Part shown: piece by piece, positions 3,001 through 9,000 of the stretch
Position numbering within the stretch: position 1 is the first letter of the stretch
Layout: each line of letters begins with the position of its first letter
Source of the DNA: Callorhinchus milii
Taxonomy: Eukaryota
NCBI RefSeq assembly: GCF_018977255.1
Contig: NW_024704755.1
Coordinates: forward strand, 12,524,001-12,588,000
DNA: 64,000 nucleotides
Reading direction: 5' to 3'
Position numbers: made by a program

Positions 3001-6000
3001 CTCCGATTATTATTTGCAAGACACCAACATTGTCATCAGTGTCTGTACTGACATGCCATTGCAGTATTTTGGAGGTTTCCAGATTTCTGGTACAAAATTT
3101 GCCAATGGATTGACGAGAGGCAAATCACTTAAACTGATATGATATTGATATCTGACAAGGTGCAGCCAGCTCATGAGTCCTTTGACCATTGTAAGATGTT
3201 TAGGATATGAAATACACACACATGCAGGTGGATGGTCTGGTTTGACACTTCATGGCAGCGCAGGGGGGATCACTGCATTGTTGGAAGTGCCGTTCTTCAG
3301 TTGAGATGCTAAACCGAGGTCCGGTCTGCCTGTTCAGGCGGATGTTAAAGATCTCATGGCGGCTGTTTGAAAAGAGAAGGGATTTTCTCCCAGTGTCCAA
3401 CAATTACTCAGTTACAACAACAACAACAACAAAATTACATTTGTTGTTGTTAAAAGTGGTCGTGGCTGTTTGTGGGACATTGCTGAATGCAAATTGGCTG
3501 TAGCATTTCTCTACCAAAATACACAGTCACCGTATTTTACAGAATGTGAAGTGCTTTGAGACATCCTTCCGGGGTGAAACAAAATGAAAGCCTGACTTCC
3601 TAGAAATCAGAGCCGAATAAGGAGAAGCGAACAACTTGGTGCAGAAATGCTTTCACTTTATTAACCTATTGATTCGATCCATTGCACGAAGGTTCGAAGG
3701 TTAAATTCATCAGTAATAGATGTATTGATCAATAAACGGACGCAAGTTGGCGACACTGGCGTAAATTGCAGGAGCCCTTACGTTGCAGTTGCTGGTTCCC
3801 CAAGAAACCAGACCAGACAGGCTCCAGGCACCGTTCACATAACAAACGAAAGGGCCACCGGAATCTCCCTGGAATAAAACATGGGACAAGCTGAACGAGC
3901 AGTGGTGAGCAGACTGCAAATACACATCGAGTCCCTCTCTCTCTCCCCCGCCCCCCCCCACCCTTCCGGAGAACTTCATAAGTAATGATCAGGATCTGGT
4001 TGGTATTTCGCCATCAGATGATAAGGCCAATTTCAGAGCCCTCTTCGGCTGCCCGCTAACTCTGCTCACATTTTATCATAGTGCTGGTAGTAATACTGTG
4101 ATATAATAATAACAATCCTCGCCTTCGATGGAGCACATTTAACGTCAGGAGGATGTCTTGATGCACTGCTGTAAAATACTTGTACCCACCTGACCTGCTG
4201 CGTGTTCCCAGCGACTTCTGTGTTTAGACCCTATTAACATCCTCCCCAAATACATGGTTACCTACCTGACACGAGGAACTTCCAGAGGCACCAGCACAAA
4301 TCATCATGTTAGTAATGCTGTTCCCCCAATATTCCTTGCAGCGACTGTTTTCAATGACGGGTAGGCTTGTCTGCATGAGCTTGCTAGCGGTTGCTATATT
4401 AGGGAGACATTATGATGACAATGACGAACTAATATAATAAGACTATTAATCCTTACATTTGATATAGTGCCTTGGGACGTCCTCCCGACGTGAAAGGCGC
4501 TATACAAATGTAATTTTGTACTGTATTGTATGACGCCTTATCACGTCTTCGAAACATCTCAAAGCATTCCCCAGAATATACTGTAAATGAATTGACTGTA
4601 TACATTTTGGGAAAAATGTGGCAGCCAATTGTGCACAGCAGTGTCCCACAAACAGTCGTGGATTGAGTGACCAAATTATTATCTTTTTAATTATTCTTTT
4701 TGAAGGGATTATTACCCTCGGAAAAGTGATCCGCCAATCGGCTAACAACCAGGTTCCTATTTACTGCGAACGGAACAGCGGCCTCTGAAGTAAGGAAACT
4801 TGCCTAACGTTTCGTCCTGCCTGCAAATCGAACCCAGGTCCTCTCGCTTGTGAGACAAGTGATCTAACCAATACGCGACAGGACTCAACATATGTTGGCA
4901 TGTGTGCCTGCAAGTGTATTCAACTTCAGTAAAGTACTTAATAGCTTCTTACCACCGCCGGCCACAGTCCTTCCCCACCCAGTGGTGACACACGTTGTGC
5001 CTCCTGGAAGATAAGTGCCCTGAGGAATCAGTGGGACTGGCGAAACATAGCTATTGTAACTAGCTGGGGAAGACAGCCTTAGTAGAGTACAGTCATAGTT
5101 CAAGGTTTGGTAGTTGAAGTTAGGATGGGTAATGACCTGAAACAAAGGCACAAAATATTATTCCATCAATAACTGAGGTCGGGTTTGAGTTTTAACCAGA
5201 AATTGCAATTTTACTTTTTTTCCATTTCGGAGTAAATGGTTATACGAACTGCTTTGAGATGTTACTTACTTAGGAAGCAATTTTAGTTTGTACTTACCTG
5301 TGAAACACTTTTCACTTGCACAGGTTCTGATGAAGAGTGCATATCAAATTCTCCGAGCACAACAATATGATAGTAGTAACTGTAGTAGTAGAAAACATTT
5401 AAATCGTTAATCTGTGGAGACACTAAGAATCTCTGTGTAGCTACTTGGAATCTAGAATAGACAATGTTCCCACGCTATTCGAAAAGTAATTGATGTTTTT
5501 CCTGGTGTCCCGGTTAACAATTCCCCGGATAAATTGTTCATTCACTTTATGGCTGTTTGAAGGACATAGCTGTGTGCAAATTGGCTGCCACATAATAATA
5601 ATAATAATCCTTGCATTTGATATAGCGCTTTTCAGGTCAGGAGGATGTCCCAAAGCGCTCACAGAATATACTGTAAAGTGAATTGACTGTATATTTGTGG
5701 GCGAACGCGGCAGCCAATTGCGCACAGCAATGTCCCACAAACAGTCGTAGATTGAAAATGACCCAATTATTCTTGTTTTGTTTTCTTGGAGGGATTATTA
5801 TTAGGCTCTGTGTGGAGGAAGGAAACTTGCCCAACGTTTCGCCCTCTGCCTGGAATTGAACTCAGGTCTCTCACTTGCAAAGCGAGTGCTTTAACCACTG
5901 AGCTAAAGGACTCCACATTGACCCTCGAAATACAGTGACTACACTTTACAAGAAATCCTGTAAAGCTCTTTAAAACATCGTCCCAACATGAAAGGCGCAA

Positions 6001-9000
6001 TATCAAATCCAACTATTATTCTTTTACTTATTTGTTGAATAAAGTACTAGATGAGCTGTTACTTTATTCAACAAATAAATAAAAGAATGAACAATTTCAA
6101 GGGGGAATTGTTAACCAGGACACCAGGAAAAACATCAATTACTTTTCGAATAGTGCAATAGGATCCATAACATTCACCTGAAGAGGAAGTTGGAACCTCG
6201 GTTACAATCCGTCAACAAGCTTCGCGGCAGGAAGCTGATTTAAAGAGAATGTTATCCAAATTTAATAACCACCTGTCAAATACTCACTTAAATTGACAGT
6301 GGGCGGCAGTAATAACCCAGTTCTGGTTTACCAGAGATCCTCCACAGAAGTGATTGCGATTTTTGTCCTGCGGAAAAACAACCAATTCTGAGAGGTGATG
6401 AAGTTTCAGGTACATTGCGCTCTCTAGATACAATAGGTCAGACACAACCAGTGAGAGTTTCCCTGTACAGCTTCAACTCAATGGAGAATAGCAATACCAG
6501 TCTGAAGTTTGCTTTCGGGGAGGGGGATATCCGAAAAGGTAAGCAATAGGTTCCTGTTACGTGTTCATCTAAACTAAAATAAAATAAAATATAGTATTCT
6601 CGCCTACACGGTACCAGCAATAAACCAGGGGAGTCCTATACCAGGGATCAAGCACAATCAGGTCTGATAACTGGACTTGTGTGTAACTAGAAAGATCACA
6701 CCAGGAGTGAATGAATTGAAGCACTTGGTTATAATCGGTGTATAACAGCAACAACAGCAGCAACTTGCCTTTACATAATGCCCTTCAAACAGGGTAGCAT
6801 CTCGAAGCCTTCAACAGTGGCGGAGCTTGATGGTGAACCACGGAGAGAGTGGAGGTGACTGTAGGCATGTATAACAGCGACTTTCCTCAGCTCTAAGTAC
6901 ATAAGCAAAACCCCTTTCCTTTCTCCAACTATATTGTCCCAGAAAGATAGGAACAGGTTATATTCCGTTGCACCTTCATGCAGGATAGTGTCTCGGAAAC
7001 TCTTCAGGTGCGATCTGACGATGGACTGCAAAGAGACTGCAAAGCGGAGGCATTGAGGCAGGGAGTTCCAGACGTTTGGGGGGCAGTGGCTGAAGGCACG
7101 GTCCCCAATGATGGAGCGGAAGGGTCAAGTGACCCGCAAAATGCCTGAGTCGGCCGAGCAAAGTGACCGGTTGAGGAGCAGTAAATAAATATTAATTTAA
7201 CAAGTTTAAACATTTCAAAAATGTAATGAATTTTACATTTAAAAATAGAATTGAAGAGAAATGTTACCTGCAGGGAGACTTGCCAGGGCCAAGCCCCTGG
7301 ACTTGACACCTGTCCGTTGACTATACGGGAAGGGTCAGCTGCAGGAGCACCAGCAACTGGGGAAGGAAAAAGGTTTGAAACAAAATATTCTTATGTGCTT
7401 GTCACTTTGTCATGATCCTGATCGCGGAGTCCGGTAGCGTATTGCTTAGAGCACTCGCCTCGCAAGCGAGAAGACACGGTCAGGGCGATACCTTAGGCAC
7501 AATGCCTTTGAGACGACTCAATGACACAATAAACCATTATATCAAATGCAAGGATTAGGATGATAAATGGTATTCTTTAAACTTCTTTATTGGATAATAA
7601 CTTAAGAAAATAGGAACAGACGCAGATCATTCAGTCAATCCAACCTGTTCAACTAGTTTAATTTAGTAGATCGCGGCTGATCGCCTCGGGATGTTCTCCC
7701 GACGTGAAAGGCACTCTATAAATGGAATCTTGTTGTTGTTGTTGATCTGACACTTAGCCCCATTTCCTGCTGTTTCAGCACTTCTTTCGATATCTTTGCC
7801 AACCAAATATTCATAATAAGAATTTGGTACATTTAATACTTCCATTTGGTACAGTGCCTGTCACATCAGGAGGATATCTCAAAGAGCTTCATAGGACATA
7901 TTTCTCTTTTCGAACAGTGCTATGGGATCTTTGACATCGACCTGGACAAGGCAGACTGGAGCTTGTTTTAGCATCTCATTTGAAGACAGTATGTCTAATA
8001 ATGGAACGCCTTGCATTGTATCCTCTTAGTCTGGATTTGCCCTTTCTCCAAAGAAGAAAGCTTCTCTGTATAGACTTTGTCAAATCCCTTTATAACATGG
8101 TTTCGGCACCCTTTCCACTTCCCCCGTCCCCCTTACCCCTATGTGCCTCAAACTACATTCCCAGTAAAAATAACGTTAAAGGTGGAAAATTGTGTAGAAA
8201 AAAAAAGTTTTTTTTAATGTTTGAACTTCCCACTTAAAAGTTAAGTGTAAAACTGCCCTTTGGGTGAGACGTTAAACTGAGGTACTGTCTGGTTCAGCTG
8301 GACATAAAGGATCTCATGGCACTCTTTAAAAAAGACAAGGGAGTTTCTCCTAATGTCGTGGCCAACAATTCCCCAGATAAAACTGGTGATTCACTTTGTG
8401 GCTGGTTGTGGGACATTGCTCTGTGCAAATTGATTGTCCCTTTTGCCTACAGATGCACAGTCAGACAGAATACATATGTACAGTAATATTGTGAAGCACA
8501 TTGAGACAGTTTGATGATTTGATAAGAGTCTATATCAAATGCAAGGATTATTATTTCTATTAAAATGCTTTGACCGGTATAACTATCACTCACCATAGGT
8601 TGCTCCTGCAATAGCAAAGCACAGGATCCAAGTGAAAGTCATGCTTGCCTCTCTTGTGTTGCTCTTTCTTCGGCTCTCTAGCTTTTATATTTGCTGATTG
8701 GAAGCTGTATCTGCAACAGATAAGGAATATCAATTCACAGAAAGGTGCAATGACATTGGAAACTGCTCACAAACGCACTTAATTTTAGGTCTCAATCAAT
8801 GGTCTTTGATCAGCAAACAAAAAACATTTTTCCAAGAAAAGTGGCAAAAATGGATTCAGATTCAGCCTAGGATTTCACTGTGCCGTCATGTAAGATTGAT
8901 GATTGTGTTTCTCCTTTTGCAAACAGTATCTGAGACACAATAATTGAAAAGACAACTTTTAATAATAATAATAATAATCCTTGCACCTTATCACATCGTT

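What the first reader, a model, noticed from the sequence alone, without database searches (positions are those of the whole stretch)
3710..8642. CTRL-like protease lacking both partners of the Cys1-Cys122 tether, with a new Cys next to catalytic Asp102
Seen: the propeptide is VAGAPAADPSR (no Cys, unlike CGxPAI..), the usual SPVCL is SPVPL, and Asp102 lies in NYDC (TGT at 5091-5089), leaving 9 Cys in the mature chain. The pseudogene copy also has APIAL and NYDC, so these changes predate the duplication. Established: chymotrypsins and CTRL keep the propeptide disulfide-linked through Cys1-Cys122. Inference: a single-chain enzyme with a released propeptide and one unpaired thiol beside the triad, possibly a lineage-specific subfamily with altered or redox-sensitive behaviour.
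Basis: partly seen in the sequence, partly recalled or inferred. Interest (0 to 1): 0.65.

Follow-up and report, generated by a model that had tools for sequence, protein, structure and literature searches.

The report
Chymotrypsin gene without its propeptide tether
This is an intact digestive chymotrypsin-type protease gene that has lost the disulfide bond normally holding its propeptide to the enzyme and has gained one spare cysteine next to a catalytic residue, which is an unusual but probably harmless variant of a well-known enzyme.

Summary
On the minus strand, 8642-3710 holds a seven-exon S1 protease gene with canonical splice sites at every boundary and a 256-codon frame. His57, Asp102, Ser195 and the Arg15-Ile16 activation site are present. 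So are the eight cysteines of the four core disulfides. Position 1 is Ala, position 122 is Pro and position 103 is Cys (TGT 5091-5089). This gives 9 Cys in 229 mature residues.

Five neighbouring tandem paralogs all keep Cys1, Cys122 and Val/Ile103. A truncated pseudogene copy shares Cys103 and lacks Cys122.

The gene is CTRL-type: it has Gln192 and Thr217 and is 49-55% identical to its neighbours. Against those neighbours it shows long-term purifying selection (dN/dS about 0.25).

The most likely reading is a working chymotrypsin whose short propeptide is released on activation, as in trypsinogen. Cys103 replaces a conserved hydrophobic residue, so it is probably a buried, inert thiol; the redox-switch idea has no support.

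Orthologue distribution and full-length structure could not be checked, because the protein databases were closed and the exons were not joined. Interest is modest.

The parts
8594..8642 (-). Exon 1: start codon (8642-8640) and signal peptide. Its single Cys lies in the hydrophobic core of the signal peptide. The last base starts the split Val codon.
7268..7356 (-). Exon 2: a Cys-free propeptide (Ala at the place of Cys1, five residues shorter than in the paralogs), the Arg15-Ile16 activation site, and residues 16-34.
6288..6367 (-). Exon 3: residues 35-60 with Cys42, His57 and Cys58.
5298..5379 (-). Exon 4: residues about 61-87. Only a weak match to bovine chymotrypsin (E 0.61).
4953..5136 (-). 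Exon 5: residues 88 to about 148 with Asp102, Cys103, Pro122 and Cys136.
5089..5091 (-). TGT codon of the extra cysteine, Cys103, directly after Asp102 (GAC 5094-5092).
5032..5034 (-). CCA codon, Pro at position 122 in place of the tether cysteine.
4266..4393 (-). Exon 6: residues about 149-192 with Cys168, Cys182, Ser189, Cys191 and Gln192.
3710..3868 (-). Exon 7: residues 193 to the end with Asp194, Ser195, Cys201, Trp215, Gly216, Thr217, Ser218, Cys220 and Ala226. Stop TGA at 3712-3710.
8683..8689 (-). TATAAAA, 47 nt upstream of the ATG. A candidate TATA box, read by eye and not tested.
3657..3662 (-). AATAAA about 50 nt after the stop codon. A candidate polyadenylation signal, read by eye and not tested.
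12203..13514 (-). Truncated pseudogene copy B with exons 5-7 only (13514-13331, 13157-13030, 12359-12203). It shares Cys103 and Gln192 and has Ala122. It has lost Cys201 (Tyr) and Trp215 (Cys), and a 2-nt deletion near 12237 shifts the frame into an early stop. Homology to the focal gene ends in intron 4 at 13617.
18231..50555 (-). Context: five tandem chymotrypsinogen B-type paralogs. C is about 22952-18231, D 31825-27548, E 40280-36536, F 46114-42301 and G 50555-47553. Exons 2-7 were found for each. All have Cys1, Cys122, Val/Ile103 and Met192.

Best explanation
The locus is an intact CTRL-type chymotrypsinogen gene: a secreted S1A serine-protease zymogen, presumably pancreatic. It lies at one end of a tandem array of chymotrypsinogen genes.

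**Shown**
- The reading frame and splice sites are complete.
- The catalytic triad, the oxyanion/activation residues and a chymotrypsin-type S1 pocket (Ser189, Gly216, Ala226, Gln192) are present.
- All eight cysteines of the four core disulfides are present.
- There is no Cys at position 1 or 122, and the propeptide is five residues shorter than in the paralogs.
- Cys is at position 103.

**Inferred**
- Trypsin cleaves Arg15-Ile16. The Cys-free propeptide of about 10-13 residues then diffuses away, as in trypsinogen.
- This leaves a one-chain enzyme. The loop around 146 has no aromatic autolysis site, so the chain should stay whole.
- The enzyme should cut after Tyr/Phe/Leu like CTRL.
- It may be less stable than tethered chymotrypsins.
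- Cys103 replaces the conserved Ile/Val of the strand after Asp102. It is most likely a buried free thiol tolerated as a near-conservative core substitution, not a regulatory switch.
For: **Gene integrity and family**
- One search shows an intact seven-exon gene with 6 of 6 AG and 6 of 6 GT boundaries.
- The Pfam Trypsin family PF00089 is hit by 4 of 6 exon bodies.
- Exons 2, 3, 6 and 7 match solved chymotrypsin A/B best. Exon 7 scores E 6e-14 against 5e-9 for the next family. Exon 6 scores 2e-12 against 5e-5 for elastase 1.

**Tether and Cys103**
- Ala1, Pro122 and Cys103 are seen. The five paralogs all have Cys1, Cys122 and Val/Ile103.
- Codon 122 (CCA; GCA in copy B) and codon 1 (GCT) differ from TGT/TGC at two or three bases, so the loss is old.
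- No alternative exon 2 exists. Each of 5 paralog exon-2 queries hits only 7351-7268; the next-best hit has E 0.25 or worse.

**Selection**
- Against the five paralogs, pN is 0.30-0.34 and pS is 0.66-0.80. dN/dS is 0.23-0.26 in the 3 of 5 pairs where it could be computed; dS was saturated in the other two.
- The focal-versus-pseudogene comparison gives 0.66.
- Of 46 amino-acid differences between the two copies, 5 are derived in the focal gene, 13 in the pseudogene and 28 cannot be polarised.

**CTRL type**
- The gene has Gln192 and Thr217. These match the non-consensus residues reported for human CTRL (PMC11694548, passages read).
- It is 49-55% identical to the neighbours. CTRL is reported as 40-56% identical to other chymotrypsins (PMC7366634, passage read).

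**Precedent for losing the tether**
- Solved trypsins have Ala or Ser opposite position 122.
- A review states that trypsin lacks an A-chain (PMC3211113, passages read).
Against: - Expression and splicing are unverified; no transcript data were available.
- Burial of Cys103 rests on conservation of a hydrophobic residue at that site, not on a structure. The exons were not joined, so no full-length model was made.
- A secreted protein with an odd number of cysteines is unusual and can be a sign of decay. The only sister copy is a pseudogene.
- Several otherwise conserved residues differ in the focal copy: Phe at 199, Leu at 212 and Phe at 237, where 5 of 5 paralogs have Leu, Ile/Val and Trp.
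- Exon 5 matches trypsins (E 5e-12) slightly better than chymotrypsin B (3e-10).
- CTRL orthology was not tested by a tree with reference sequences. Position 218 is Ser, not the Lys of human CTRL.
Confidence: 0.62

Rival explanations
1. Cys103 is a functional thiol beside Asp102 that makes the enzyme sensitive to oxidation, metals or thiol reagents. It may alternatively form an intermolecular disulfide. On this view it defines a lineage-specific regulated subfamily.
For: - Cys103 is kept in both copies with different codons, TGT and TGC.
- Getting from the paralogs' ATC/GTG/GTT to TGY needs two base changes, so it is not a one-step slip.
- It arose in the same lineage that lost the tether.
- The focal lineage has been under purifying selection.
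Against: - Position 103 is Val/Ile in 5 of 5 paralogs and Ile in 4 of 4 printed trypsin alignments. This points to a core position where a thiol would be shielded.
- Retention in the pseudogene says nothing about selection.
- There is no partner cysteine in the mature chain or the propeptide.
- A search for Cys103 with 'chymotrypsin' and 'catalytic triad' gave 2 papers, neither on this point judging by title and start of abstract.
Confidence: 0.12
2. The gene is decaying or silent. On this view the lost disulfide, the unpaired cysteine and the unusual substitutions are signs of relaxed constraint in a redundant member of a large array.
For: - The sister copy B is a truncated, frameshifted pseudogene.
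- Five canonical paralogs lie nearby and could cover the function.
- There are focal-specific changes at conserved sites 199, 212 and 237.
- Focal-versus-B dN/dS is 0.66.
Against: - There is no stop, frameshift or broken splice site in 771 nt and 12 splice junctions.
- All catalytic, activation and core-disulfide residues are kept.
- Long-term dN/dS is about 0.25.
- Polarised changes are 5 in the focal copy against 13 in B. This gives a one-sided binomial of about 0.05 by my own arithmetic.
- TATA-like and AATAAA motifs sit at the expected places.
- The tether codons have changed at 2-3 bases. So the gene has stayed intact for a long time after the loss.
Confidence: 0.15
3. The gene model is wrong, and the real transcript uses another exon that supplies Cys1, or another partner for Cys103.
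For: Exon 1 and the short exons cannot be confirmed without transcripts. Intron 1 is 1.2 kb and full of repeats.
Against: - tblastn with the Cys1-bearing exon 2 of each of the 5 paralogs finds only the known exon 2 in 2500-9600.
- Exon 2 begins with TT after the acceptor, so the junction codon cannot be Cys.
- Even with a Cys1, position 122 is Pro, so the tether could not form.
Confidence: 0.03

Closest known systems
Chymotrypsin-like protease CTRL (human, mouse; rat 'chymopasin')
   Same: - It is a chymotrypsin-fold zymogen with Ser189 and Gly216.
- It has Gln192 and Thr217, which are reported as non-consensus hallmarks of human CTRL and likely of CTRL-type enzymes (PMC11694548, passages).
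- The 146 loop has no aromatic autolysis site. Human CTRL has Gly146; here the loop has no Tyr, Phe, Trp or Leu.
- It is about 50% identical to B-type chymotrypsins (PMC7366634).
   Different: - Activated human CTRL is two chains held by native disulfides (PMC11694548, section 3.2 passage). This gene has Ala1 and Pro122, so it cannot be.
- Its propeptide is five residues shorter than in the neighbouring paralogs.
- It has Cys103.
- It has Ser218 instead of Lys218.
- Its net charge is only +1, whereas human CTRL is described as basic.
- Orthology was not tested by phylogeny.
Chymotrypsinogen A/B (bovine and rat structures such as 1acb, 1kdq, 2jet; paralogs C-G in this window)
   Same: - The seven-exon layout is the same as in paralogs C-G here, with acceptors and donors at the corresponding positions.
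- It shares the triad, Arg15-Ile16 and the four core disulfides.
- These are the best solved-structure matches for exons 2, 3, 6 and 7.
   Different: Those proteins have Cys1-Cys122, Ile/Val103 and Met192. Bovine chymotrypsin A also cuts itself at Tyr146 (PMC11694548).
Trypsinogen, and other tether-less S1 zymogens (snake-venom thrombin-like enzymes; proelastase 1, which is recalled)
   Same: - There is no Cys at 122 and no retained A-chain. Solved trypsins show Ala or Ser opposite position 122.
- The review PMC3211113 states that trypsin lacks an A-chain and that snake-venom thrombin-like enzymes have Ser122.
- The activation peptide is released.
- Exon 5 scores best against trypsins.
   Different: - Trypsin has Asp189 and a different disulfide set; both points are recalled and were not tested here.
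- This gene has Ser189 and the chymotrypsin set of cysteines.
- That proelastase 1 lacks the tether is recalled only and rests on no call.

Membership tests
S1A chymotrypsin-fold serine proteases (Pfam PF00089) | Significant match to the family profile | tested here: met
   4 of 6 exon bodies hit PF00089 (E 1.8e-9, 2.6e-12, 3.9e-6, 5.3e-8). The 29-aa exon 2 and the 27-aa exon 4 bodies gave no hit.
S1A chymotrypsin-fold serine proteases (Pfam PF00089) | Catalytic triad His57, Asp102, Ser195 | tested here: met
   Ungapped matches to 1acb_E place His57, Asp102 and Ser195 within GDSGGP.
S1A zymogens | Arg/Lys15-Ile16 activation bond and Asp194 | tested here: met
   SR then IVNG aligned to residues 14-19 of chymotrypsinogen A; Asp194.
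Chymotrypsinogen A/B/CTRL group | Chymotrypsin-type S1 pocket: Ser189, Gly216 and a small residue at 226 | tested here: met
   Ser189; Gly216 and Ala226.
Chymotrypsinogen A/B/CTRL group | Cys1-Cys122 disulfide that keeps the propeptide on the enzyme | tested here: not met
   Ala at the place of Cys1 and Pro at 122. 5 of 5 neighbouring paralogs have both cysteines.
Chymotrypsinogen A/B/CTRL group | Cysteines of the four core disulfides 42-58, 136-201, 168-182 and 191-220 | tested here: met
   All eight cysteines sit at the aligned positions. The pairing itself is not testable here.
CTRL-type chymotrypsins | Gln192 instead of the chymotrypsin consensus Met192 | tested here: met
   Gln follows Cys191. 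5 of 5 paralogs have Met. The criterion comes from PMC11694548 (passages).
CTRL-type chymotrypsins | Thr217 and Lys218 as in human CTRL | tested here: inconclusive
   Thr217 is present, but 218 is Ser. The paper calls Lys218 extremely rare among chymotrypsins and does not show that it is general to CTRL orthologues.
CTRL-type chymotrypsins | About 40-56% identity to other chymotrypsin isoforms | tested here: met
   49-55% identity to paralogs C-G over 204-209 compared residues of exons 2, 3, 5, 6 and 7. C-G are 60-84% identical among themselves.
CTRL-type chymotrypsins | Groups with reference CTRL sequences in a phylogeny | not testable with these tools
   No reference vertebrate sequences could be obtained, the protein databases were closed, and the exons were not joined.
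CTRL-type chymotrypsins | Conserved gene neighbourhood of CTRL (human 16q22.1) | tested here: inconclusive
   Exon 1 of a V-ATPase subunit d1 gene lies at 63892-63999. That the human counterpart lies in 16q22.1 near CTRL is recalled. PMC7366634 gives only the CTRL band.

The most novel reading that the evidence does not exclude
The loss of the propeptide tether and the gain of Cys103 are linked adaptations. Together they define a so far undescribed class of CTRL-type chymotrypsins. These would be single-chain enzymes with a freely released activation peptide. Their catalytic Asp102 would be flanked by a thiol that tunes activity or stability in response to oxidation or metals in the gut lumen.
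Probability: 0.1. Interest if true: 0.55.

Novelty: new variant of a known kind. Interest (0 to 1): 0.3.

Why it matters
The physiological role of CTRL is still unclear. Knock-out mice show altered protease activation but unchanged pancreatitis severity (PMC7366634, abstract). No CTRL structure has been solved (PMC11694548).

The disulfide-linked propeptide is reported to stabilise pancreatic zymogens and their mature enzymes. This comes from Kardos et al. 1999, of which I saw only the title, in the reference list of PMC9693254.

A natural CTRL-type enzyme that has done without the tether for a long time is therefore a ready-made comparison. It could show what the tether contributes to stability, zymogen quiescence and autolysis. 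If orthologues share the pattern, it would mark a distinct chymotrypsin lineage. If not, it is a one-species curiosity.

Tried and rejected
- **Protein Atlas.** A search with exon 7 returned only generic 'Trypsin domain' clusters and gave no subfamily or taxon information. The second call was not spent.
- **Pfam.** A search on the 36-aa V-ATPase exon gave nothing. The solved-structure search identified it instead.
- **Papers not held.** Two papers that might have shown chymotrypsin alignments or elastase propeptide chemistry, PMC3573857 and PMC5314167, are not held.
- **Literature searches with nothing on this variant.**
  - CTRL + propeptide + disulfide: 0 papers.
  - Cys1 + Cys122 + chymotrypsinogen: 4 papers, none on a tether-less chymotrypsin judging by title and abstract start.
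  - Ile103 + Asp102 + chymotrypsin: 1 paper, unrelated.
  - Cys103 + chymotrypsin + catalytic triad: 2 papers, unrelated.
- **Alternative exon 2.** Considered and rejected.
- **Elastase or chymotrypsin C identity.** Considered and rejected. Exon 6 scores 2e-12 against chymotrypsin A, 5e-5 against elastase 1 and 5e-4 against proproteinase E.
- **Collections not used.** The bacterial/archaeal genome collection and the phage, plasmid and E. coli collections were not searched, because they cannot hold a vertebrate orthologue.
- **Not done.** The joined, spliced protein was never made. So there was no full-length search, structure prediction, fold search or complex prediction.

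
Full report
**Scope and limits**

- The window has no N.
- I do not take it for human, for these reasons:
  - It carries a tandem array of six chymotrypsinogen-type genes plus a fragment.
  - Its introns are full of tRNA-headed repeats.
  - The one highly conserved exon in it differs from the mammalian solved V-ATPase d1 sequence at several of 35 aligned residues.
The joined step was left out, so there is no full-length protein search, structure prediction, fold comparison or reference phylogeny.
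Whether orthologues with the same cysteine pattern exist elsewhere therefore stayed unchecked.
- Supplements were closed. Table S1 of PMC11694548, which lists the CTRL chains, was not seen.

**The observation**

- Read on the minus strand, 8642-3710 gives seven exons. All six acceptors are AG and all six donors are GT. The frame is 771 nt, 257 codons with the stop.
- Exon-wise matches to bovine chymotrypsinogen A (1acb_E) are ungapped and fix the classical numbering:
  - exon 2 residues 8-29 = 13-34
  - exon 3 residues 1-24 = 35-58
  - exon 5 residues 4-57 = 91-144
  - exon 6 residues 2-41 = 152-191
  - exon 7 residues 1-48 = 193-240
  - exon 4 matches only weakly (E 0.61)
- On this numbering His57, Asp102, Asp194, Ser195, Ser189, Gly216 and the Arg15-Ile16 bond are all present.
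- Cysteines stand at 42, 58, 136, 168, 182, 191, 201 and 220.
- Residue 103 is Cys (TGT 5091-5089) and residue 122 is Pro (CCA 5034-5032).
- The stretch before Ile16 has no Cys apart from one in the signal-peptide core.
- The mature chain is 229 residues with 9 Cys and a net charge of +1.

**Surroundings**

- tblastn with each focal exon, and inspection of the flanks, show five more genes on the same strand. These are C at about 22.9-18.2 kb, D at 31.8-27.5 kb, E at 40.3-36.5 kb, F at 46.1-42.3 kb and G at 50.6-47.6 kb. Each has exons 2-7.
- In 5 of 5, exon 2 starts with Cys-Gly-x-Pro and encodes a 15-residue propeptide. Residue 122 is Cys (TGT/TGC), residue 103 is Val or Ile, and residue 192 is Met.
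- The focal propeptide aligns with a five-residue gap and has Ala (GCT) at the place of Cys1.
- Copy B lies at 13514-12203.
  - It has only exons 5-7. Its homology to the focal gene stops in intron 4 at 13617.
  - It has Tyr for Cys201 and Cys for Trp215.
  - A 2-nt deletion near 12237 brings an early stop.
  - It shares Cys103 (TGC), Gln192 and a non-Cys residue at 122 (Ala, GCA).
- So the changes at 103 and 122 predate the A/B duplication (dS about 0.31). The loss of Cys1 cannot be dated that way, because B has no exon 2.

**Is the focal gene alive?**

- Against the five paralogs, synonymous sites are saturated (pS 0.66-0.80) while pN is 0.30-0.34. dN/dS is 0.23-0.26 in the 3 of 5 pairs where it can be computed; dS could not be computed for the pairs with E and F.
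- Focal versus B gives 0.66 over 432 nt.
- Of the 46 amino-acid differences between focal and B (144 positions compared), 5 are derived in the focal copy, 13 in B and 28 cannot be polarised.
- The codons at positions 1 and 122 differ from TGT/TGC at two to three bases. The tether was therefore lost long ago, and the gene has stayed intact since.
- A TATAAAA lies 47 nt upstream of the ATG, and an AATAAA about 50 nt after the stop (read by eye).
- Against this stand three points. Expression is untested. The only sister copy is dead. The focal copy has unusual residues at 199, 212 and 237.

**What kind of chymotrypsin?**

- Exons 2, 3, 6 and 7 match solved chymotrypsins A/B best. For exons 6 and 7 the margin over elastase, chymotrypsin C partners and trypsin is wide.
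- Exon 5 is the exception. It scores slightly better against trypsins (4.6e-12) than against chymotrypsin B (2.8e-10). This fits its trypsin-like lack of Cys122.
- The focal protein is 49-55% identical to C-G, which are 60-84% identical to each other. So A and B form a separate, older lineage.
- It has Gln192 and Thr217. [quoted passage not shown]
- PMC7366634 (Introduction passage) gives 40-56% identity between CTRL and other chymotrypsins.
- Ctrl transcripts are reported from a shark pancreas (PMC4362833, one passage), so the type is old in jawed vertebrates.
- I therefore call the gene CTRL-type. Orthology is not proven, and Ser218 differs from the human Lys218.

**Mechanism**

- Shown: no cysteine is available to hold the propeptide.
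- Inferred:
  - After cleavage at Arg15-Ile16 the short propeptide leaves, as in trypsinogen. Solved trypsins show Ala or Ser opposite 122, and the review PMC3211113 notes that trypsin has no A-chain.
  - The loop around 146 contains no aromatic or Leu residue, so the enzyme should remain a single chain.
  - The S1 pocket predicts Tyr/Phe/Leu preference, with the weaker hydrophobic S1 contacts that Gln192 causes in human CTRL (PMC11694548).
  - The enzyme may be less stable. [quoted passage not shown]
- Cys103 replaces a residue that is Val/Ile in 5 of 5 paralogs and Ile in 4 of 4 printed trypsin alignments. The simplest reading is a buried thiol in the hydrophobic core.
- The redox-switch idea is possible but has no support here.

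**Comparison with the known, and novelty**

- Loss of Cys1-Cys122 is common across the S1 family but, as far as my searches go, is not described for a chymotrypsin or CTRL-type enzyme. Those searches were made, which cover a library that lacks most subscription journals.
- A Cys at 103 was not found in print either.
- Because a conserved feature of the chymotrypsinogen group is tested and not met, I file this as a new variant of a known kind.
- Interest is modest: a useful natural comparison for the role of the tether, with no sign of new biology.

Noticed in passing
window 18231-50555, minus strand: There is a tandem array of five chymotrypsinogen B-type genes (C-G) beside the CTRL-type gene, all in the same orientation. 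E and F are the youngest pair: 84% identical, dS about 0.28. CTRL-type and B-type genes sitting side by side suggests that the two types arose by local duplication.
   Followed up: partly
genes C and D: exon 4 (21675-21604, 30292-30221) and exon 6 (19460-19335, 28259-28134): C and D each carry two extra cysteines that the other copies lack. One is in the 70s loop (NKC in exon 4) and one is near residue 153 (TPC at the start of exon 6). This may be an additional disulfide between two neighbouring surface loops. It was not tested.
   Followed up: no
gene E exon 5, 38481-38317: E has a three-residue deletion after His91-Pro92 and reads EFD instead of NND before position 103. Its frame is open in the exons seen.
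   Followed up: no
window 9046-10191 and 13614-14739: A 1.1-kb stretch upstream of the focal gene recurs at 95.6% identity directly upstream of pseudogene exon 5. That is much more alike than the gene bodies (76-88%). It may be a later duplication, a gene conversion or a young repeat. It marks the point where copy B lost exons 1-4 and its promoter.
   Followed up: partly
window 63892-63999, plus strand (GC-rich 62-64 kb): This is the first coding exon of a V-ATPase subunit d1 gene. It scores E 2.4e-14 against solved mammalian subunit d1 over residues 2-36. It sits in the most GC-rich part of the window (GC 0.51) and runs off the window end.
   Followed up: partly
window 10898-10967, 27371-27443, 34452-34522, 35937-36008, 54689-54760: There are five tRNA-like hits (Ala, Ala, Pro, Thr, Ala) inside a repeat family that recurs dozens of times in introns and between genes. 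They are probably heads of tRNA-derived SINEs rather than tRNA genes.
   Followed up: no
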